Virus record (IMG/VR): IMGVR_UViG_2778261460_000004
Length of the DNA: 47,736 nt
DNA from: a virus
Lineage: Duplodnaviria; Heunggongvirae; Uroviricota; Caudoviricetes
Reading direction: 5' to 3' (one strand)
Below the pieces are notes generated by a model, which was given only the letters and a program-made list of their open reading frames with translations, searched no databases and was not told where the DNA came from. Within the stretch, counting starts at the first letter, position 1. Each line of letters opens with the position of its first letter. A program made the position numbers and the translations under genes. Shown here piece by piece: positions 1,659 through 11,337 of this stretch.

Positions 1659-4139
1659 TTAAAAATCAGCCTGACTCGGGATCAGTTTTTGTATCGTAGC
1701 TGTAACGTATTTTGCCTGGTGACGGGCGTCATCCAGTGCATTGTGGCGCACGCCTTCGAATGGAATAACGGTTCTGGCATCAAAGTCGATTGTTTTTCCC
1801 AGCTCAACGATTGTGCGTACATCGCGATCGTTGTAGTAGCGCCACGGGCAGGGGATGTCCAGACGTTCGTATGAGGTGCGCAAAATTGCGTTATCGAAAG
1901 TCGCACCATTACCCCATACCTGAACGAATTTTTCATCTGAGTATTCGTTGATGAACTCCCGAAACTGCGAAAGGGCATCCTTCAGTTTTACCTGGTCTGT
2001 TAAAATGGCAGCTCTGGCTTCACTGGACTGCTTCAGCCACCATTCGATGGTTCCACCGTCAGGAACAGCCCCTGTATTCATTGCGTCAGTCAGACTGATA
2101 ACGATATAAAATACTGGCCCGATTTCCCCTGTTTGTGGGTCGAAGAAAACCGCACCAATAACCACGATGGGCGCATTGGTGTTGGTTCCCATTGTTTCAA
2201 GGTCGATCATCAGGTGGTACCACACTCTGCTGGTGGATGTGATAACGTGATGACCGTTCACCGCAATTAAGGAATCTGCCGTCTCGCCAGTTTCATTATC
2301 GCTGGCGTGGTCCTGAGCGCTGCCAGCATTCTCCTTGTGTGGATGTTCAGCGCCTTCCATTTCCTCCGGATCATTTTCCTGAACTTCAACCTGATTCTCT
2401 TCATCGAATGTTTCCTGGTATGTTGCGTCGCCCATCACCGCACCACAATCAGGGCAGTTGCCGCCACCGAGCTGACCGCAGGCGGTGCAGACTTTTTCCG
2501 CTTCCTGTTGCGCTACCGGTTCGGATTGTTTCGTTTCTGGTTCGTTTTGTAACGCATTTGGGCTGTTTTGTTCCGCTTTTGGGTCGTTCTGTTCCGATTC
2601 TTGCTGGTTCTGGTTCACAGAATCGCGGGTTTCAATCCCCTTCACCCATTTCGGATCATTCGGGTCGCTAATCCCTGCAACAAATTCTCCGCGAGAGGCA
2701 GCAAGCAACTTATCGGCGTCAGGCTGGCTGATATTGGCTGCCTGCATAATTTTGTTTACTTCGTCAGCGGTAACTTTTACCGGCTCCGGTTGTGCGGTCG
2801 TGTCAGATGCACCAGTATTTTGTTGTGAACCTGAGTATGTGCCGTTTTTGCGGGCAAAATATTCTTCTTTCGTGATTTCAGTAGCCCCTGCAGCCAGCGC
2901 CTTATTCAGACCAGAAAGTTTGTTTGCACGACCATATTTTTCGCCATCCTTATCGGTGAAAAGGAAGTAGAACGGCCCCTCACGCTCTACAGATGGTTCA
3001 GTTTCCAGCGTGCTTTCATTTTTTTGGGTATCAGATACTTCAGTTTCCACTGCATCAGTTTGTGCTGCTGACGGCTGGAGAATATCAGTAGTGTTCTGGT
3101 CTGTTTCTTCATCCTCAAACACGCCCTTTGTCGCCAGGTATTCAGTGATGTATTTGTTCAGTGCCACGGGATCTTTGTGAATGTCGATCGGACGCTCACG
3201 GACAAGGCCAAAAATAGTCTGACGGTCGTAGCGAACGGCATCGGGTTGTTTGCGCATTGATGCGGAAATGCGCTTCCAGTCTTCGCGATCTTTGTCGATA
3301 ACTTCATTTTTTGCCCAACGATGGATGCTGCCGTCAATGTTTCCGGCATTAATATCGCCAGGCCACAGAGCGTAGGCCAGTTCTTCATCCAGCGTTTTCC
3401 ATGTCTGCTTGTATTCGCGACGAATGGCGGTAGTGGCGGGGTTGATTTTTCCTGCTGAGTTTTCAGTGTGCTGCCGGTTGACTCTGGCGCGGGCAAGATC
3501 AACAACAGACGTGTATTTCCCGGTTTCTTTGCGTTCGGCTTCGCGACGTTTTTTCCAGGTGCGTAATTCTGTCTGGATCTCAGGCCATTTTGCGCCCGGC
3601 TTACATTTATGTTTAACCCACCCGATGGCGAACAGCTTTAGTTCTGAATACATGACGTTAACTTCAGGCATTTTCATCAGTGCCTCAACGATATGCCCGT
3701 CGAATGTTGCCATGTCCTCCTGCAACAATTCCTGTGCACTAATCACCATATCAACGGTGATGTTTTCACATGTACCGAACTTAACCAGGACCGCGTTCTG
3801 TACTTCAAGGGACAGCTTGTCAAAATTGACGTTCATCGGATCGGATTCTGGTTCGACCGGAACAAAGGAAGCGCCTTCCTCATCCCAGCGGTTTTCCAGC
3901 ATATATTCGGTATCCCAGGAGTCGATGGCAGGGCGGGGCATGCCGGGTTTATCCTCGCAGACAAGAAATTTATAAGCGCAGTCCTGAGCAGCCGGATATT
4001 GCTCCAGGAATTGCCAGGTAAATTTGGCACGGGCGCGGCGTTCGTCGCCGGCTTCAATGGCAGTGGCTACAGCGACTGCACCTTCTTCCTTTATTGCCTG
4101 TTCGTCCGGAATGGCGGCGCAAATAAAGACTTTACTCAT
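1659..4139 (-). CDS. Large prophage exonuclease with C-terminal DnaQ-like DEDDh 3'-5' exonuclease domain (exodeoxyribonuclease VIII-like / YdfE-like)
   Basis: 826 aa. C-terminal motifs LMIDLETMG (Exo I, D-x-E), [12 protein letters not shown] (Exo II) and [13 protein letters not shown] (Exo III, H-x4-D). Central Cys cluster [16 protein letters not shown] (zinc-ribbon-like) and Gln/Glu-rich low-complexity linker. No RecT/Bet partner seen. Confidence 0.7.
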
Positions 4140-4219
4140 TTTGTTTTAACCTCATTACAGATTTAAGGGTGAACAAATCCCTGCCATTGCTGGCATATAA
4201 AAATGAAACCGGATATTAA

Positions 4220-4423
4220 TTACGGTGCTGTTTTAAGTCCTGCCGGGATTTCGTTATTGTCCATGTGAATAACTTTATCGACCGGATAGCAGTTACCGGG
4301 AATTTTTTGTTCCGCTGCGGCAGCCATGCATTCTTTCATTGAGTCATGTATGCCAATAACAAGATCGACTGGTTCGCCTGTATTAAGAAAAACTGTCAGA
4401 ACGAGTGCAAATGCTGTATTCAT
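4220..4423 (-). CDS. ydfD: YdfD-like small protein (reported lysis protein of Qin)
   Basis: 67-aa product from internal Met (MNTAFALVLTVFLNTGEPVDL...KIPGNCYPVDKVIH...), hydrophobic N-terminus; start overlaps dicB stop (ATGA); synteny dicF-dicB-ydfD as in Qin. Identity from memory, moderate. Confidence 0.55.
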   Translation of the reverse strand: MNTAFALVLTVFLNTGEPVDLVIGIHDSMKECMAAAAEQKIPGNCYPVDKVIHMDNNEIPAGLKTAP

Positions 4424-4608
4424 TGCCAGCGTCCTTTTTGCATCAGGCGTAAACGGGCCAGCATTGAAAGAATGCATATTTTATTTAATAACTCCCGTTC
4501 GTGTTTTCTCTTATTAATGGCATCTTCAGTAAATGCAGGGTTACTGATTCTGACACCAATTTCAAAACAACCTTCAGACGTATTGACGTTTGGTAATAAC
4601 GTTTCCAT
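4420..4608 (-). CDS. dicB: Cell division inhibitor DicB (MinC-activating)
   Basis: 62-aa product METLLPNVNTSEGCFEIGVRISNPAFTEDAINKRKHERELLNKICILSMLARLRLMQKGRWQ, near-identical to recalled K-12 DicB; directly downstream of the DicF sequence. Confidence 0.85.
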   Translation of the reverse strand: METLLPNVNTSEGCFEIGVRISNPAFTEDAINKRKHERELLNKICILSMLARLRLMQKGRWQ

Positions 4609-4777
4609 TATCGCGTCCTCAACAATGAATTTTGTGATGCGGTGCCTGGTGCCTCCAGGTGACGTTAACCAGTTAACAATTAACGCCGGATGCAGAGAAT
4701 CCACCCATAACACTGTTTTTGGTTTTAACTGTTCCGCGTGCGCTTAGCCGCATTCACCGCATCACAAAATTCACTTT

Positions 4778-4836
4778 AAAAAGGGCGGCAGAGCAGTCAC
4801 GAAGTAAAACTGATACCGCCAAACGTCACCAGAAAA
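4778..4836 (-). ncRNA. dicF: DicF small regulatory RNA (ftsZ-targeting sRNA) with 3' terminator-like hairpin
   Basis: Reverse complement of 4784-4836 reads TTTTCTGGTGACGTTTGGCGGTATCAGTTTTACTTCGTGACTGCTCTGCCGCCC followed by a T-run, matching the recalled 53-nt DicF with about 1 mismatch; position between ydfA-type genes and dicB matches the known dicB operon. Confidence 0.75.
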
Positions 4837-5171
4837 TTGATAACAGAGGGCGTTGCAGCGGGGTTGTCACTTAAGCGTATGGTCAACCTGACAACCCGGT
4901 GTCCTCAACGGGGAAGGGATAACCCCGCCATACTTACCGCCGCGCTATTTCGCGGATTGCCACAACCGGAAGCGCACGGTCGACGAAAATTTAACGACAG
5001 ACCATTTATGAACTAACAGCCTCGCCGTGCGCTTTCGCGTTATGCCCTGACTTTTCAGGGAAAATTAACCAGTGGTAAACTGGTGCTGCCGGATGCTCAC
5101 CCGTGTCCGGCGCACGCACTCCACCTAACCCGTGGAGAACTCCTTAATTACCAACCCATCAGGAGGGGGAA

Positions 5172-5393
5172 ATGACTAGTAAAAATGTAAATATCCAGTT
5201 TAACCATGATGTTTCTCCTGCTGGACTTGCGGATGAACTCACTGCTATAAAAACGGCAATTATGCTACTTGCGGCTAAGTTGCCAGCAGCATCACAACCA
5301 TCAGATATTTGTGACTCATTACGTAAGATGAATTCAACAAAATGCAACGAGATGGCATCACTTATTGAAATAGCTATTGATTTTAATGATTAA
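5172..5393 (+). CDS. Hypothetical 73-aa protein, oriented against the early-left operon
   Basis: ATG preceded by strong SD (AGGAGGGGGAAATG); convergent with and overlapping by 11 nt the 3' end of the 124-aa minus-strand gene; no recognisable motifs. Confidence 0.4.
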   Translation: MTSKNVNIQFNHDVSPAGLADELTAIKTAIMLLAAKLPAASQPSDICDSLRKMNSTKCNEMASLIEIAIDFND

Positions 5394-5757
5394 TCGAAAT
5401 CTCATGGCTAACTGTAACACTCCCGTCTGTGGCGGGATGCTTTAAATCACAGGAATTAATGCTTCTTGTTGCGAAGTAATTTTCAAGGGGGTTCATTCGA
5501 ATCCCTTTCTGTTTCATTAACAAGCCAAATCCCTTATCAATGATGTCCATTAATTCCAGGAAGTCTTTTTTATGTAAATCCTGGTTATCAGAGAGTTGCT
5601 TCTCTTCGTACAGTCCGATAAAGGCACGACGCACGTTACCGGATATATTATCGATGGTTTCTTTTTCTACGGTACTCAGGTCAAGAGTCGCCAATTGAGA
5701 ATGAACTATATTCGCTGCCATTTCCTGGAATGGCATTGGTAAATCTTTAAATTCCAT
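5383..5757 (-). CDS. Hypothetical 124-aa protein in dicB operon (position of ydfB/ydfC)
   Basis: Likely start at internal Met (MEFKDLPMPFQ...) with GAGG 6 nt upstream; 12 nt downstream of ydfA stop; no recognised family. Confidence 0.5.
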   Translation of the reverse strand: MEFKDLPMPFQEMAANIVHSQLATLDLSTVEKETIDNISGNVRRAFIGLYEEKQLSDNQDLHKKDFLELMDIIDKGFGLLMKQKGIRMNPLENYFATRSINSCDLKHPATDGSVTVSHEISINH

Positions 5758-5768
5758 CGTCAACCTCA

Positions 5769-5921
5769 TCAGTCAGTATTTCTGGCTAACCAGCGACGCG
5801 CGCCAGCTTCGGTTTTAAACGTTTTGCTTTTGGTATACGTCATCGCCGTGAACGTGCCGTCTTGGTTTGGAAACACGCCGTATACCAGAGACTCGTTGTT
5901 GCCAAGATCGATAGTATCCAT
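5769..5921 (-). CDS. ydfA: YdfA-like small protein (first gene of dicB operon)
   Basis: 50-aa product MDTIDLGNNESLVYGVFPNQDGTFTAMTYTKSKTFKTEAGARRWLARNTD matches recalled K-12 YdfA; track ORF extends upstream to 5999. Confidence 0.65.
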   Translation of the reverse strand: MDTIDLGNNESLVYGVFPNQDGTFTAMTYTKSKTFKTEAGARRWLARNTD

Positions 5922-6103
5922 GCTGACCTCATTTCCCCTTAACGCCGGGGTGGCGGAACAAAAACCTGCTGCATAGTTAAAGTTGAACCCTGCCGTCATG
6001 TTCTTACGCCTCGGGCTGGCTACTTAACCCCTGACCACTGCCTGGTAACTCGAAGTATTGCCCTGCATTCTGTGGGGCGGGGTGGGTTGGTATGAAAAGA
6101 AGG

Positions 6104-6141
6104 ATACCCATAGGTATTTAAAAAGTAAATACCCATGGGTA
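6104..6141. promoter_or_regulatory. Putative left operator sites (OL-like) between repressor gene and ydfA
   Basis: Two palindromes ATACCCATAGGTAT (6104-6117) and TACCCATGGGTA (6130-6141) flanked by A/T runs; share ATACCC-N3/4-GGT core with the sites in the divergent promoter region. Confidence 0.45.
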
Positions 6142-6183
6142 ACTTTTTGCGGTGTCTTAACTGGTGACTAGTTGTTTGGTGAG

Positions 6184-6603
6184 CTATGATGCGTTTTGTG
6201 CTTTCTTTTTACGGATTTCTTCGTAGATCATATTGTAATACTGTTTTTTCTCTTCAAGAGTTTTTAATAAGTTATCCGCTTCACTTTCTGGCAGTTCGTC
6301 TAAGAGATCTAAAAAAATACGTTGTCGTGGCGTTAGAACCCTTGTTTCATAACTGGAGGCTGTGTTCGTTGATGATGAAACGATACCATCCATCCATCCC
6401 CGGGGTAACCCAAAGGACTCTTCGATAATCTCCACCATATCATCAGCGATCCGTTTTTTTCCCTTTTTCCCCTCTGGGTACAACATTCTTGATACATAAG
6501 AAGGCTCGCGCCCGATCTTTCTGGCCACGTTAACCGCTTTACCATCGCATTTCTCATCACGAATTTTGATGAGTTGCTGTCGTCTAAATTCATATTTGTC
6601 CAT
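6184..6603 (-). CDS. Prophage repressor, DicA/RacR-family HTH protein (cI analogue)
   Basis: 139 aa; N-terminal HTH-like segment (GKAVNVARKIGREPSYVSRML); C-terminal LPESEADNLL motif reminiscent of DicA; divergent from Cro-like gene across an operator-rich intergenic region. Confidence 0.7.
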   Translation of the reverse strand: MDKYEFRRQQLIKIRDEKCDGKAVNVARKIGREPSYVSRMLYPEGKKGKKRIADDMVEIIEESFGLPRGWMDGIVSSSTNTASSYETRVLTPRQRIFLDLLDELPESEADNLLKTLEEKKQYYNMIYEEIRKKKAQNAS

Positions 6604-6631
6604 AGGTAAATAATAGATGCGATTACTGCAA

Positions 6632-6678
6632 GGTAAACAACCTGCGGGTATTGACTTTTGTTTACCTGCGGGTATTCT
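6632..6678. promoter_or_regulatory. Divergent promoter/operator region of the immunity switch (OR-like)
   Basis: 13-mer ACCTGCGGGTATT repeated at 6640-6652 and 6664-6676; inverted repeat GGTAAACA/TGTTTACC (6632-6639, 6658-6665); TTGACT hexamer at 6651-6656. Confidence 0.5.
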
Positions 6679-6703: not shown

Positions 6704-6985
6704 ATGGAAGAATTAAGAATATTTCTCAATTCTCTTTCGTCAGATGAACAGCGTATGTTTGCATGCGAGTGTGGTACCAGCATCGGTTATCTAAGAAAGG
6801 CATTGAGTAAAGGTCAAGTGTTAGGGGCATCGTTATGTGTCCTTATTGAGCGAGCCAGTAATGGTGAAGTTACACGTCAGCAACTAAGGCCTTTTGATTG
6901 GATGAATATTTGGCCCGAGCTGGAAGATACCAAAATGTTAACACAACCACTTTCTAGGAGCTTGATTCATGAAAATCAAGCATGA
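6704..6985 (+). CDS. Cro/YdaS-like HTH regulator
   Basis: 93 aa, first gene rightward of the repressor; SD AAGGAG 6 nt upstream of ATG; resembles Rac YdaS (from memory). Confidence 0.6.
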   Translation: MEELRIFLNSLSSDEQRMFACECGTSIGYLRKALSKGQVLGASLCVLIERASNGEVTRQQLRPFDWMNIWPELEDTKMLTQPLSRSLIHENQA

Positions 6986-7394
6986 ACACATCCGCATGGC
7001 GATGAATGCCTGGGCGCATCCGGACGGTGAAAAAGTTCCGGCAGCTGAAATAACCAGGGCTTATTTTGAACTGGGTATGACGTTCCCAGAACTGTATGAC
7101 GACAGCCATCCGGAAGCCCTGGCTCGCAATACCCAGAAAATTTTCCGCTGGGTAGAGAAAGACACCCCTGATGCAGTTGAAAAAATTCAGGCGTTGTTAC
7201 CAGCTATCGAAAAAGCAATGCCACCTCTGCTGGTGGCCCGAATGCGCAGCCATAGCTCAGCCTATTTTCGGGAACTAGTGGAGACGCGGGAACGACTGGT
7301 GAGAGACGCTGATGATTTTGTCGCAGTGGCGATCGCTGGTTTCAACCAGATGAATCGTGGTGGCCCTGCAGGAAATATTGTGGCTGTGCATTGA
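6969..7394 (+). CDS. YdaT-like (CII-like) protein
   Basis: 141 aa starting MKIKHEHIRMAMNAW..., overlapping Cro-like gene end; matches recalled Rac YdaT. Confidence 0.6.
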   Translation: MKIKHEHIRMAMNAWAHPDGEKVPAAEITRAYFELGMTFPELYDDSHPEALARNTQKIFRWVEKDTPDAVEKIQALLPAIEKAMPPLLVARMRSHSSAYFRELVETRERLVRDADDFVAVAIAGFNQMNRGGPAGNIVAVH

Positions 7395-9333: not shown

Positions 9334-11337
9334 ATGATTATGAGTGAAAATGATACAACCCCAAAGAAGTCTACAAGCCAGATTAACAAAGCGGTATTCT
9401 TTACATCTGCTTTGCTAATTTTCCTTCTTGTCGCCTTTGCCGCCGTATTCCCGGATGTCGCCGACAAAAATTTTAAACTACTTCAGCAACAAATCTTCAC
9501 GAATGCCAGCTGGTTCTACATACTTGCTGTGGCCCTGATTTTACTGAGCGTCACGTTCCTTGGACTCTCACGTTACGGTGATATAAAGCTGGGCCCAGAC
9601 CATGCGCAGCCTGATTTCAGCTACCACTCCTGGTTCGCGATGCTTTTTTCGGCAGGGATGGGGATCGGCCTGATGTTCTTTGGCGTTGCCGAACCTGTGA
9701 TGCATTATCTTTCGCCACCTGTCGGCACTCCAGAGACCGTTGCGGCAGCGAAGGAAGCCATGCGCCTGACGTTCTTCCACTGGGGTCTGCACGCATGGGC
9801 AATTTATGCCATCGTGGCGCTGATTCTGGCCTTTTTCAGTTACCGTCACGGTCTGCCTTTAACGCTGCGTTCTGCGCTCTATCCCATTATCGGCGATCGC
9901 ATTTACGGGCCTATAGGCCACGCGGTTGATATCTTCGCCGTGATAGGCACTGTCTTTGGCGTTGCAACATCGCTGGGTTACGGTGTATTGCAGGTGAATG
10001 CCGGTTTGAACCATCTTTTCGGCGTGCCCATCAATGAAACGGTACAGGTCATTTTGATCGTGGTCATCACGGGGTTAGCGACGATTTCGGTGGTGTCCGG
10101 CCTGGACAAGGGAATACGCATCCTGTCTGAGCTTAATCTGGGCCTGGCGGTGTTGCTCCTGGCGCTGGTCTTGTGCCTGGGTCCCACTGTGCTTCTGCTG
10201 AAGTCATTTGTGGAAAATACGGGTGGTTATCTGTCGGAACTGGTGAGTAAAACGTTCAACCTTTACGCGTATGAACCCAAGTCGAGCAACTGGCTGGGGG
10301 GCTGGACATTATTATACTGGGGATGGTGGCTTTCATGGTCGCCGTTTGTAGGTATGTTCATTGCACGCGTTTCCCGCGGCAGGACAATTCGTGAGTTCGT
10401 GACTGGCGTGTTGTTTGTTCCCGCCGGCTTTACGCTCATGTGGATGACGGTGTTTGGAAACAGCGCCATCTATCTCATCATGAACCAGGGCGCCACTGAC
10501 CTCGCCAATACCGTTCAGCAGGATGTTGCGCTTGCCCTGTTTAATTTCCTGGAGCATTTCCCGTTCTCTTCCGTGCTGTCATTCATTGCAATGGCGATGG
10601 TCATCGTCTTCTTTGTAACGTCTGCTGATTCGGGGGCAATGGTTGTGGATACTCTGGCATCAGGTGGGGTGGCAAACACGCCCGTCTGGCAGCGAATTTT
10701 CTGGGCATCGCTCATGGGCGTTGTTGCTATTGCCCTGCTGATCGCAGGGGGGCTGAGTGCGTTGCAAACCGTAACGATAGCGAGTGCATTGCCCTTCTCA
10801 GTTATCTTATTAATATCCATATACGGACTGTTAAAAGCCCTGCGTCGGGATTTGACCAAGCGTGAAAGCCTTAGCATGGCGACTATTGCTCCTACGGCTG
10901 CACGTAACCCAATTCCCTGGCAGAGAAGGTTACGCAATATCGCGTATTTGCCGAAGCGCTCTCTTGTGAAACGTTTTATGGACGACATTATCCAACCCGC
11001 CATGACGCTGGTTCAGGAGGAACTTAACAAGCAGGGAACGATAAGCCACATCAGTGACGCCGCCGAGGATCGTATTCGCCTTGAAGTCGATTTGGGCAAC
11101 GAGCTGAATTATATATATGAAGTGAGGCTTCGCGGGTATAACTCACCGACCTTCGCGCTCGCTGCGCTGGATAATGATGAGCAGCAGAGTGAACAACATC
11201 GATATTATCGCGCTGAAGTCTATCTCAAAGAGGGCGGCCAAAATTATGATGTAATGGGCTGGAATCAGGAACAGCTGATTAATGACATACTGGACCAGTA
11301 CGAAAAACACCTGCACTTCCTGCATCTGGTTCGTTAA
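9334..11337 (+). CDS. BCCT-family transporter (BetT-like choline/glycine betaine transporter)
   Basis: 667 aa; multiple TM segments; BCCT signature WTLLYWGWWLSWSPFVGMFIARVSRGRTIREF; long cytoplasmic C-terminal extension as in BetT. Confidence 0.85.
   Translation: MIMSENDTTPKKSTSQINKAVFFTSALLIFLLVAFAAVFPDVADKNFKLLQQQIFTNASWFYILAVALILLSVTFLGLSRYGDIKLGPDHAQPDFSYHSWFAMLFSAGMGIGLMFFGVAEPVMHYLSPPVGTPETVAAAKEAMRLTFFHWGLHAWAIYAIVALILAFFSYRHGLPLTLRSALYPIIGDRIYGPIGHAVDIFAVIGTVFGVATSLGYGVLQVNAGLNHLFGVPINETVQVILIVVITGLATISVVSGLDKGIRILSELNLGLAVLLLALVLCLGPTVLLLKSFVENTGGYLSELVSKTFNLYAYEPKSSNWLGGWTLLYWGWWLSWSPFVGMFIARVSRGRTIREFVTGVLFVPAGFTLMWMTVFGNSAIYLIMNQGATDLANTVQQDVALALFNFLEHFPFSSVLSFIAMAMVIVFFVTSADSGAMVVDTLASGGVANTPVWQRIFWASLMGVVAIALLIAGGLSALQTVTIASALPFSVILLISIYGLLKALRRDLTKRESLSMATIAPTAARNPIPWQRRLRNIAYLPKRSLVKRFMDDIIQPAMTLVQEELNKQGTISHISDAAEDRIRLEVDLGNELNYIYEVRLRGYNSPTFALAALDNDEQQSEQHRYYRAEVYLKEGGQNYDVMGWNQEQLINDILDQYEKHLHFLHLVR

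What the first reader, a model, noticed from the sequence alone, without database searches (positions are those of the whole stretch)
6104..6678. Immunity-region operator architecture: ATACCC-N3/4-GGT palindromes on both sides of the repressor gene
Four related sites occur: two in the divergent repressor/cro promoter region (ACCTGCGGGTATT twice, 24 bp apart) and two palindromes between the repressor 3' end and ydfA (ATACCCATAGGTAT, TACCCATGGGTA). This implies one repressor controls both the Cro-side promoter and the leftward dicB/exonuclease operon, analogous to lambda OR/OL, and defines the immunity specificity of this phage.
Basis: seen in the sequence. Interest (0 to 1): 0.3.

Follow-up and report, generated by a model that had tools for sequence, protein, structure and literature searches.

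The report
Prophage repressor operators flanking its gene
The four repeated sites are real and are most likely the binding sites through which a prophage repressor shuts off the promoters on both sides of its own gene, which is an ordinary lambda-type immunity switch, but one whose operator sequence had not been written down although the same switch occurs across many Proteobacteria.

Summary
ATACCCNNNGGT occurs four times in the 47.7-kb window, all inside 6104-6675, against 0.25 expected. The sites are 14-bp palindromes with consensus (A/T)TACC(C/T)nn(G/A)GGTA(T/A).

Two sites (OL2 6129-6142, OL1 6104-6117) sit on a leftward promoter for the ydfA-DicF-dicB-exonuclease operon. Two more (OR2 6638-6651, OR1 6662-6675) sit on the cro promoter.

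The comparative evidence is strong:
- In 43 loci from other Gamma- and Betaproteobacteria that encode the same repressor N-terminal domain, 38 carry the motif at fixed distances (-67/-42/-27) from the repressor ATG.
- 27 of them carry a 25-bp-spaced pair on a promoter downstream of the repressor gene.
- The 5 loci with an altered recognition helix lack the motif.
- A phage with the same flanks and the same repressor C-terminus, but another N-terminal domain, has a different motif in the same slots.

The window repressor is a chimera. It joins the DNA-binding domain of mEp043-type, S24-bearing CI repressors to a short DicA/Tritos-like tail.

This is a new member of a known kind, of modest interest.

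The parts
6104..6117 (.). OL1: operator palindrome ATACCCATAGGTAT. It overlaps the spacer and -10 of the predicted leftward promoter PL.
   Evidence: Exact motif match; scores 11/12. It is the perfect palindrome ATACCCATGGGTAT in other E. coli genomes. An equivalent site overlaps the -10 in 27 related loci and in phage mEp043.
6129..6142 (.). OL2: operator palindrome ATACCCATGGGTAA, abutting the -35 of PL, 25 bp centre to centre from OL1.
   Evidence: 12/12. A pair spaced 24-26 bp lies downstream of the repressor gene in 27 of 43 loci, against 0.01 in shuffles.
6101..6129 (-). Predicted PL (analogue of dicBp): -35 TTTACT (6129->6124), 17-nt spacer, -10 TATCCT (6106->6101). The start would be near 6093, and the promoter drives the ydfA-like/DicF/dicB/exonuclease operon.
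   Evidence: Read from the sequence. At 8/12 it falls just under the scan threshold, so one search did not list it. Its geometry matches PR in the window and the downstream promoter/operator module of 27 related loci: the last T of O2 plus TGACn forms the -35, and GGTA(T/A)nnT forms the -10. In mEp043 the depositors annotated a putative PL at exactly this position. The homology shared with other phages ends at 6087/6096, right at the predicted start.
6105..6141 (-). 16-bp hairpin formed by OL2 and OL1 in RNA read through from the repressor gene, followed by UCCUUCUUUU. It is a possible terminator for that transcript.
   Evidence: Terminator-like hit. The 101-nt stretch 6085-6185 that holds it folds at -24.1 kcal/mol, z = -4.7. 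The T-run is not conserved in most related loci, so this role is uncertain.
6184..6603 (-). Repressor gene (139 aa). Residues 1-73 are an Xre-type helix-turn-helix domain shared with mEp043-type S24 CI repressors. Residues 77-87 are a linker. Residues 89-139 are a helical tail shared with DicA/Tritos-type short repressors.
6623..6636 (.). OR3: weak third operator (TTACTGCAAGGTAA on the + strand, TTACCTTGCAGTAA on the repressor strand). It overlaps the -35 and spacer of PRM, and its centre lies about 27 bp from the repressor ATG.
   Evidence: It scores 9/12, which is noise level on its own. However, a site at this exact distance is present in about 35 of 43 loci, and sister E. coli genomes have TTACCTTGCGGTAA at 10/12.
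6638..6651 (.). OR2: operator (CAACCTGCGGGTAT on the + strand). It abuts the PRM -35 and overlaps the first base of the PR -35. Its centre lies about 42 bp from the repressor ATG.
   Evidence: The half nearer the repressor gene is degenerate throughout the family.
6662..6675 (.). OR1: operator (TTACCTGCGGGTAT on the + strand). It overlaps the spacer and -10 of PR. Its centre lies about 66 bp from the repressor ATG.
   Evidence: 11/12.
6651..6678 (+). PR: TTGACT, 16-nt spacer, TATTCT. This is the promoter of the cro-like/ydaT/replication operon.
   Evidence: Promoter scan. The motif GGGTATTGAC is conserved in related loci.
6610..6637 (-). PRM: TTTACC, 16-nt spacer, TATTAT. The -10 ends 6 nt before the repressor ATG and there is no Shine-Dalgarno sequence, so the mRNA is probably leaderless.
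   Evidence: Promoter scan. A TAnAAT-like hexamer 6-7 nt before the ATG, with no gaps in the upstream alignment, is seen across the family. Leaderless cI and paaR2 are precedents (PMC8630535).
6704..6985 (+). cro-like gene (93 aa, YdaS-like, phrog_35). It is 73% identical to mEp043 Cro.
1659..5999 (-). Leftward operon presumed to be under PL: ydfA-like DUF1391 (5769-5923/5999), a 128-aa ORF (5383-5769), DicF sRNA (4783-4834), dicB (4420-4608), ydfD-like DUF1482 (4220-4477) and an exonuclease (1659-4139).
   Evidence: In Qin the dicBF transcript starts upstream of ydfA (PMC10448788).

Best explanation
The sites are the operators of a lambda-type immunity switch. The 139-aa repressor (6184-6603, minus strand) would bind as a dimer, through an Xre-type helix-turn-helix whose recognition helix reads (P)SYVSRM, to 14-bp palindromes (A/T)TACC(C/T)nn(G/A)GGTA(T/A).

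On the right, OR1 (6662-6675) covers the -10 of PR and OR2 (6638-6651) touches its -35. Occupancy therefore blocks transcription of cro-like, ydaT and the replication genes. OR2 is centred about 42 bp upstream of the repressor ATG and start site, next to the PRM -35, where a bound repressor could stimulate PRM. OR3 (6623-6636) lies over the PRM -35 and spacer, where it could shut PRM at high repressor level or be used by Cro.

On the left, OL2 (6129-6142) and OL1 (6104-6117) sit on PL (TTTACT-N17-TATCCT) in the same geometry. They would silence the ydfA-DicF-dicB-exonuclease operon. The Cro-like protein very probably uses the same sites.

Shown here: the sites exist, they are non-random, they have a fixed geometry relative to promoter-like hexamers, and they co-vary with the repressor's DNA-binding domain. 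Inferred: actual binding, promoter activity, activation from OR2, the leaderless mRNA and the order of site occupancy.
For: - There are four exact ATACCCNNNGGT matches, all here, against 0.25 expected.
- PR and PRM are predicted at the sites. PL has geometry identical to PR.
- The repressor N-terminal domain is shared at 65-80% identity with 221-242-aa S24 CI repressors from many genera.
- In 43 loci encoding this domain there are 76 motif hits within 90 bp upstream of the repressor start, in 38 loci, against 0.39 in shuffles. 27 loci have a pair spaced 24-26 bp downstream, against 0.01.
- The sites sit at fixed offsets of -67, -42 and -27 from the ATG.
- The downstream pairs carry TTGACn/TAnnnT hexamers in register.
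- All 38 loci with a (P/A/D/Q)SYVxRM recognition helix have the motif. The 5 loci with a changed helix have none.
- The Klebsiella loci keep the motif without an adjacent cro homologue.
- The mosaic junctions with phages Tritos and 640R1 fall at 6087/6096 and 6957/6964, so both site clusters lie in immunity-specific DNA.
- Tritos has the same repressor tail but another N-terminal domain, and carries a different motif ((A)TGTACTnnnnGTWCA, 24-bp pairs) in the same two slots.
- Within E. coli, the substitutions seen in the sites fall at the central bases or at positions 6 and 9, which are variable across the family.
- mEp043 has three OR sites and a depositor-annotated putative PL on its OL pair.
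- The AF2 model has pLDDT 87 and an HTH N-terminal domain that resembles phage repressors and C-proteins.
- Experimental precedents for the layout exist: DicA/dicBp/dicCp in Qin (PMC10448788) and PaaR2/YdaS with OR, OL and a leaderless repressor in CP-933P (PMC8630535).
Against: - No binding, footprint, transcription-start or reporter data exist for this repressor or any homologue I could find.
- PL matches the consensus at only 8/12 and was not called by the promoter scan.
- OR3 and OR2 score 9/12, which by score alone is noise level in this window. Their support is positional conservation only.
- Only two left-hand sites were found, against three at lambda OL.
- The Cro-like protein co-occurs with the motif in most loci, so part of the signal could belong to Cro.
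- Structural matches to solved repressors are weak (best E about 1e-3).
Confidence: 0.85

Rival explanations
1. The left-hand pair is primarily an intrinsic terminator for the repressor transcript. The two arms pair into a 16-bp hairpin followed by a U-rich run, which would stop read-through from PRM into the toxic dicF/dicB operon. On this reading the pair is not an operator pair. A weaker version, that it has this role in addition to being an operator, is compatible with the best explanation.
For: - The scan reports a terminator-like hit at 6141->6105 with a tail of TCCTTCTTTT.
- The 101-nt stretch 6085-6185 that holds the hairpin folds at -24.1 kcal/mol, z = -4.7, and no shuffle folds as well.
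- There is no other G+C-rich hairpin between the repressor stop (6184) and ydfA.
- The stem extends 3 bp beyond the 14-mers (I1).
Against: - Each arm is itself a palindrome matching the OR sites, which a terminator does not need.
- Any two neighbouring copies of a palindrome will pair, so the hairpin is an automatic by-product.
- The same pairs occur 600-2200 bp beyond the repressor stop in many loci, and after a separate terminator in mEp043.
- A T-run after OL1 is seen only in the window and two Klebsiella loci. It is absent from about ten loci where the pair lies within 150 bp of the stop.
- The stem has only 5 G-C pairs and the U-tract is interrupted.
Confidence: 0.08
2. The sites are recognised only by the Cro-like (YdaS-family) protein, or by another factor. 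The 139-aa protein would then not be the protein that reads them.
For: - A homologous Cro-like protein accompanies the motif in most loci and is 73% identical to mEp043 Cro.
- The 139-aa protein has no Pfam DNA-binding domain hit and is annotated 'hypothetical' in RefSeq.
Against: - The Klebsiella loci L005-L010 keep the motif on both sides of the repressor gene without an adjacent cro homologue.
- Presence of the motif tracks the repressor's recognition helix exactly: 38 of 38 with it, 5 of 5 without it.
- The protein models confidently as an HTH domain.
- In every studied lambdoid switch CI and Cro share operators (PMC8630535, PMC10448788), so Cro binding would not exclude repressor binding.
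Confidence: 0.05
3. The repeats are chance similarities, or remnants of a duplication, with no regulatory role.
For: OR2 and OR3 score no better than many random 14-mers in the window.
Against: - 0 of 100 shuffles give four matches.
- The motif has conserved positions in 38 distant loci whose flanking DNA is unrelated.
- Within E. coli the observed substitutions fall at the centre or at positions 6 and 9, not in the outer half-site bases.
Confidence: 0.01

Closest known systems
Bacteriophage lambda OR/OL switch (CI, Cro, PR, PRM, PL)
   Same: - The repressor and cro genes are divergent.
- Palindromic operators overlap the -35/-10 of PR and PL on both sides of the repressor gene.
- OR1-OR2 spacing is 24 bp here; in lambda it is 24 bp, from general knowledge of lambda.
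- An operator sits next to the PRM -35 at about -42.
- The repressor mRNA is probably leaderless.
   Different: - The operator sequence is unrelated: 14-bp TTACCnnnnGGTAA against lambda's 17-bp sites.
- OR2 and OR3 abut (15 bp centre to centre, against 23 bp in lambda).
- Only two OL sites were found.
- OL-OR separation is about 0.53 kb, against about 2.4 kb in lambda.
- The repressor has no S24 autocleavage domain.
- There is no N gene; the leftward operon is ydfA-DicF-dicB.
Qin prophage DicA / DicC / dicBp of E. coli K-12 (PMC10448788; PMC3441716)
   Same: - The gene order is the same: short repressor, then a promoter upstream of ydfA driving ydfA-...-DicF-dicB-ydfD, with a divergent cro-like gene.
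- The repressor is short and lacks the RecA-cleavage domain.
- Operators are reported at both dicCp and dicBp.
- The C-terminal tail is weakly DicA-like (NF007257, E = 2.8e-5).
   Different: - The DNA-binding domain is different: there is no HTH_3/DicA N-terminal match, and the NCBIfam score of 23.9 is far below the 101-bit cut-off.
- The operator sequence, and therefore the immunity, is presumably different.
- The right-hand operon is ydaS/ydaT-like.
CP-933P switch: PaaR2 / YdaS / YdaT with OR, OL and PL933P (PMC8630535; PMC9986795)
   Same: - It has a YdaS-like Cro and a YdaT next to it.
- Footprinted operators lie in the divergent region, and a second operator set lies at a PL-like promoter beyond the repressor operon.
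- The repressor gene is leaderless.
   Different: - The operators there are 18-bp repeats with the consensus half-site GTTTAGTAA.
- The repressor operon carries a toxin-antitoxin pair.
- There are four evenly spaced repeats, against three sites spaced 24 and 15 bp here.
Phage mEp043 cI/cro (NC_019706; genus Aguilavirus)
   Same: - The repressor N-terminal domain is the same: 76% identity over residues 1-72, and 65% over the 86-residue alignment.
- The Cro is the same (73%).
- The operator motif is the same, with three OR sites and an OL pair on the annotated putative PL.
   Different: - mEp043 cI is 228 aa with an S24 peptidase domain.
- An extra gene lies between cI and PL, and the N antiterminator lies downstream.
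- Its operators are not annotated in the record, and I found no paper describing them.
Salmonella phage SPC32H Rep (PDB 5d50/5d4z), a short repressor controlled by an antirepressor
   Same: It is the best structural match to the AF2 model (E about 1e-3). It also combines an HTH N-terminal domain with a short helical C-terminal part and has no S24 domain.
   Different: Sequence identity is low (16-22%) and the overall TM-score is low (0.44-0.47). No antirepressor was looked for in the window.

Membership tests
Lambdoid immunity region (CI/Cro bistable switch with OR and OL) | Divergently transcribed repressor and cro-like genes separated by a short regulatory region | tested here: met
   The repressor is at 6184-6603 (-) and the cro-like gene at 6704-6985 (+), with a 100-bp gap. 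They match phrog_5736 (transcriptional regulator) and phrog_35 (transcriptional repressor). The cro-like protein has a weak YdaS hit and YdaT lies downstream.
Lambdoid immunity region (CI/Cro bistable switch with OR and OL) | Several copies of one palindromic operator overlapping the -35/-10 hexamers of the two divergent promoters | tested here: met
   OR1, OR2 and OR3 lie on PR and PRM. The promoters are predictions only.
Lambdoid immunity region (CI/Cro bistable switch with OR and OL) | The same operator repeated at a second early promoter on the far side of the repressor gene (OL/PL) | tested here: met
   OL1 and OL2 lie on TTTACT-N17-TATCCT. The same module is found in 27 related loci and at mEp043's annotated PL.
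Lambdoid immunity region (CI/Cro bistable switch with OR and OL) | The operator sequence is specific to the repressor's DNA-binding domain and is exchanged together with it (an immunity module) | tested here: met
   The motif follows the N-terminal domain whatever the C-terminal domain and is lost when the recognition helix changes. Tritos has the same flanks and tail but another N-terminal domain and another motif.
Lambdoid immunity region (CI/Cro bistable switch with OR and OL) | Three operators at each of OR and OL | tested here: inconclusive
   OR has three sites, the third of them weak. At OL only two sites reach 9/12 or more.
Lambdoid immunity region (CI/Cro bistable switch with OR and OL) | Repressor and Cro demonstrably bind the operators and repress PR/PL | not testable with these tools
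   This needs EMSA, footprinting, ChIP or reporter fusions. No published data were found.
LexA/S24-type autocleavable CI repressors (Peptidase_S24, PF00717) | C-terminal S24 peptidase domain with an Ala-Gly cleavage site | tested here: not met
   The window protein has no Pfam hit. It ends at residue 139 with a helical tail, whereas homologues with the same N-terminal domain carry PF00717.
DicA subfamily (NCBIfam NF007257) | Full-length match above the curated cut-off (101 bits) | tested here: not met
   The score is only 23.9 bits, restricted to residues 86-136, the C-terminal tail.
Xre / lambda-repressor-like helix-turn-helix fold | Four-to-five-helix bundle with a helix-turn-helix; structural similarity to solved members | tested here: met
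   The AF2 model has pLDDT 87 with helices at 3-18, 23-30, 34-40 and 54-63. Foldseek finds C.Esp1396I at TM 0.71 (normalised to the target), rmsd 2.7 A over 74 columns, and SPC32H Rep at E = 1e-3. E-values are weak and there is no Pfam HTH hit.

The most novel reading that the evidence does not exclude
The window shows one instance of an apparently undescribed but very widespread immunity-switch family. The family comprises a DNA-binding domain with no Pfam model (MDKYE...REPSYVSRMLYPEGKKGKKRIADDM...LPRGWMDG), a matching YdaS-like Cro, and TTACCnnnnGGTAA operators held at invariant distances (-67/-42/-27) from a leaderless repressor start. It runs from E. coli to Neisseria, Xanthomonas and Burkholderiales. 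OR2 and OR3 abut at 15 bp, on opposite helix faces, which implies cooperativity rules different from lambda's. In E. coli the S24 autocleavage domain has been replaced by a DicA/Tritos-type tail. That change would convert an SOS-inducible immunity into an antirepressor-dependent or non-inducible one while keeping the same operators. It also predicts that about 15% of complete E. coli genomes are immune to mEp043-type phages through a cryptic prophage.
Probability: 0.45. Interest if true: 0.45.

Novelty: new member of a known kind. Interest (0 to 1): 0.3.

Why it matters
It assigns a concrete operator sequence, promoters and a regulatory logic to a protein that RefSeq mostly calls 'hypothetical'. 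That protein sits in 822 of 5426 complete E. coli genomes and guards toxic prophage genes: dicB, DicF and the ydaS/ydaT-like genes.

It also yields predictions that are cheap to test. One is which phages these lysogens should be immune to, namely those of mEp043 type. Another is that induction should not follow RecA-mediated cleavage.

The family-wide operator consensus and its fixed geometry can be used to annotate immunity regions in many Proteobacteria. Conceptually it adds nothing beyond the lambda, Qin and CP-933P paradigms.

Tried and rejected
- Literature searches for the RefSeq accession, for mEp043 and for six operator strings found no description of these operators.
- A PDB sequence search with the repressor gave only spurious hits such as the ADAR Z-alpha domain. 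Pfam gave nothing for the repressor.
- I first thought the prophage was cut off by host betT at 9334. The same BCCT-transporter layout occurs in another E. coli genome, so this may be cargo. I did not pursue it.
- A fourth OR-side match over the repressor start codon (6596-6609, 9/12) was rejected as noise. Its score is at background level and the position is not conserved in other loci.
- The pattern TACC-N5-GGTA gave only scattered hits, so the N4 core spacing is the correct one.
- A conserved T-run after OL1 in related loci, which would support the terminator idea, was looked for and not found.
- My crude cro ORF finder picked wrong TTG frames in several loci, for example L019 and L045. For mEp043 the annotated cro was used instead.
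- The CP-933P operators (GTTTAGTAA) and the YdaT site (TTGATTN6AATCAA) do not resemble this motif (PMC8630535, PMC9986795).
Full report
**Observation.** The region was read directly.
- ATACCCATAGGTAT lies at 6104-6117 and ATACCCATGGGTAA at 6129-6142. Both are in the 184-bp gap between the stop of a 139-aa minus-strand ORF (6184-6603) and a DUF1391/ydfA-like gene (5769-5999, probable start 5923).
- ACCTGCGGGTATT occurs at 6640-6652 and again at 6664-6676. These lie in the 100-bp gap between that ORF's start and a plus-strand 93-aa YdaS-like gene (6704-6985).
- The common pattern ATACCCNNNGGT has exactly four matches in 47.7 kb, all here, against 0.25 expected. None of 100 shuffles reached four.

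**Anatomy of the sites.**
- Written as 14-mers, the sites are near-palindromes with consensus (A/T)TACC(C/T)nn(G/A)GGTA(T/A). They are OL1 6104-6117, OL2 6129-6142, OR2 6638-6651 and OR1 6662-6675.
- The promoter scan finds PR (TTGACT-16-TATTCT, 6651-6678, +) and a leftward promoter, PRM (TTTACC-16-TATTAT, 6637-6610, -).
- OR1 covers the PR spacer and -10. OR2 ends on the first base of the PR -35 and abuts the PRM -35.
- The PRM -10 ends six bases before the repressor ATG and there is no Shine-Dalgarno sequence. The repressor mRNA would therefore be leaderless, as for lambda cI and CP-933P paaR2 (PMC8630535).
- On the minus strand, the left pair aligns base for base with the PR module:
  - ACCCATGGGTAT-TTACT-N17-TATCCT (left pair)
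  - ACCTGCGGGTAT-TGACT-N16-TATTCT (PR)
- This gives a PL candidate with -35 at 6129->6124 and -10 at 6106->6101. At 8/12 it falls just below the scan's threshold.
- A third right-hand site at 6623-6636 (TTACCTTGCAGTAA on the repressor strand) lies over the PRM -35. It scores only 9/12 here, but 10/12 (TTACCTTGCGGTAA) in other E. coli genomes.

**What the genes are.**
- The leftward operon holds the ydfA-like gene, a 128-aa ORF, DicF sRNA (4783-4834, Rfam 75 bits), dicB (4420-4608), a ydfD-like DUF1482 gene, an 826-aa exonuclease, xis and int.
- The rightward operon holds the cro-like gene, ydaT, a replication initiator and a DUF977 gene.
- This is the Rac/Qin/CP-933P type of lambdoid prophage.
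- The immunity segment 6090-6720 is present in 822 of 5426 complete E. coli genomes. The repressor is nearly always annotated 'hypothetical protein'.

**The repressor is a chimera.**
- It has no Pfam hit.
- Its residues 1-73 are 65-80% identical to the N-termini of 221-242-aa S24/LexA-family CI repressors of Salmonella, Klebsiella, Edwardsiella, Pantoea, Aeromonas and others, and of coliphage mEp043 cI.
- Its tail (residues 89-139) is about 75% identical to the tail of the 139-aa CI of phage Tritos, whose N-terminal domain is different. The tail is also weakly DicA-like.
- An AlphaFold model (pLDDT 87) shows a helix-turn-helix bundle, a disordered linker (77-87) and a helical hairpin.
- Foldseek places the model among Xre-type repressors and C-proteins. 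The top hit is the antirepressor-controlled Rep of Salmonella phage SPC32H.

**Comparative test of the operator assignment.** A scan of one genome per species returned 43 loci that encode this N-terminal domain, from Enterobacterales to Neisseria, Xanthomonas, Burkholderiales and Nitrosomonas.
- *OR side.* Scoring 14-mers against WTACCCNNGGGTAW at 10/12 or better gives 76 hits within 90 bp upstream of the repressor start, in 38 loci, against 0.39 in shuffles.
- *Fixed positions.* The upstream sequences align without gaps. Sites fall at about -67, -42 and -27 from the ATG. A GGGTATTGAC stretch forms the PR -35, and a TAnAAT-like hexamer lies 6-7 nt before the ATG.
- *OL side.* 27 loci have a pair 24-26 bp apart downstream of the repressor gene, against 0.01 in shuffles. 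The pairs lie 42-250 bp or 600-2200 bp beyond the stop, the larger distances presumably leaving room for extra genes (in mEp043 one small gene lies between cI and PL). They always sit in register with a TTGACn -35 and a TA(T/A)nnT -10.
- *mEp043.* In mEp043 the depositors had annotated a 'putative PL' exactly on this pair, and three sites are visible at OR.
- *Recognition helix.* All 38 motif-positive loci have the helix (P/A/D/Q)SYVxRM. The five motif-negative loci have SYVNRI, ASISHM, ATISHL, AYVYQL or GQVSQW.
- *Without Cro.* The Klebsiella loci keep the motif on both sides of the repressor gene although no cro homologue is adjacent.

**Mosaic boundaries.**
- Against phages Tritos and vB_EcoS-640R1, homology runs up to window 6087/6096 and resumes at 6957/6964. 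Inside that interval only the repressor tail (6185-6300) matches, at 76%.
- Both operator clusters therefore lie in immunity-specific DNA. The left junction falls at the predicted PL start.
- Tritos carries its own motif, (A)TGTACTnnnnGTWCA, as 24-bp-spaced pairs in the same two slots.
- This natural domain swap is the strongest argument that the sites are read by the repressor's N-terminal domain and that they define immunity.

**Variation within E. coli.** Among the three diverged E. coli copies aligned here, the substitutions inside the 14-mers fall at the two central bases or at positions 6 and 9, which also vary across the family. The TACC/GGTA cores are unchanged apart from the window's own OR3 base.

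**Rivals.**
- *Terminator.* The left pair is reported as a terminator-like hairpin with 16 pairs and a tail of TCCTTCTTTT. The 101-nt stretch around it folds at -24.1 kcal/mol, z = -4.7.
  - Two adjacent copies of one palindrome must pair, so the hairpin is partly automatic.
  - The T-run is not conserved in the ten or so related loci where the pair is close to the repressor stop.
  - mEp043 has a separate terminator upstream of its pair.
  - I therefore regard termination, or a repressor roadblock, of PRM read-through as a possible extra role and not as the explanation.
- *Cro-only binding.* This is disfavoured by the Klebsiella loci and by the helix/motif co-variation. Shared use of the sites by Cro is expected.
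- *Chance.* Chance is excluded.

**Comparison with known systems.**
- The logic is that of lambda OR/OL. The gene layout is that of Qin, where DicA represses dicBp upstream of ydfA and also dicCp (PMC10448788). It also matches CP-933P, where PaaR2 and YdaS footprint OR and regulate a PL-like promoter (PMC8630535).
- The differences are the operator sequence, the abutting OR2-OR3 (15 bp), only two detectable OL sites, and a repressor that joins an mEp043-type DNA-binding domain to a short tail without S24.
- I found no paper describing these operators. Subscription literature was not searchable.

**Verdict.** This is a new member, in the sense of a new immunity specificity, of a very well-known kind of system. 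The assignment is well supported by comparative genomics but has not been tested experimentally. Interest is modest.

Noticed in passing
window 6184-6603 (-): The repressor is a natural chimera. Residues 1-73 match mEp043-type S24 CI repressors and residues 89-139 match the tail of phage Tritos CI and, weakly, DicA. The S24 autocleavage domain of its relatives is absent, so induction is probably not by RecA-mediated cleavage.
   Followed up: yes
window 4783-4834 (-) and 4420-4608 (-): DicF sRNA (Rfam RF00039, 75 bits) and dicB lie in the leftward operon. dicB is hidden inside a longer listed 97-aa GTG ORF (4420-4713).
   Followed up: partly
window 9334-11337 (+): A BCCT/BetT-like transporter gene follows directly after the prophage DUF977 gene. 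The same layout, followed by DUF2254 and an S1 peptidase, is seen in E. coli JNEC-KY178, where the prophage sits next to rspB. This is either prophage cargo or the edge of a truncated prophage.
   Followed up: partly
window 6596-6609: A further 9/12 motif match (TTGTCCATAGGTAA) overlaps the repressor start codon. Its score is at background level and the position is not conserved in other loci.
   Followed up: partly
window 5924-6093 (-): The roughly 170-nt leader between the predicted PL start and the ydfA-like start is C-rich on the transcribed strand (CCAACCCACCCCGCCCC...). It is about 93% conserved with phages that carry other immunity regions. Its function is unknown; a Rho-loading or processing site is possible.
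   Followed up: no
L046 (phage Tritos) 1809-1853 and 2374-2412: Tritos has its own operator motif, (A)TGTACTnnnnGTWCA, as 24-bp-spaced pairs in the OL and OR slots. Its annotated cro start, 7 bp from the CI start, looks too early.
   Followed up: partly
L045 (mEp043) 3552-3577: Upstream of the mEp043 OL pair lies a long-spaced palindrome, TTACCTG-N10-CAGGTAA, built from the same half-sites. It may be a third OL element with unusual spacing.
   Followed up: no
L005-L010 (Klebsiella spp.), around 2900-4000: 233-aa S24 repressors with the same N-terminal domain carry sites at -67 and -27 (none at -42), with one or two more sites about 210-280 bp beyond the repressor stop, but no adjacent cro homologue. 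This may be a different kind of element, such as a satellite or a lone repressor.
   Followed up: partly
window 6969-6985: The ydaT-like gene (6969-7394) overlaps the end of the cro-like gene by 17 nt. The mosaic junction with other phages (6957/6964) falls just there, so the last ~20 residues of the 93-aa Cro-like protein, which extend past the ~76-aa Cro homologues, end inside ydaT-flank sequence.
   Followed up: no
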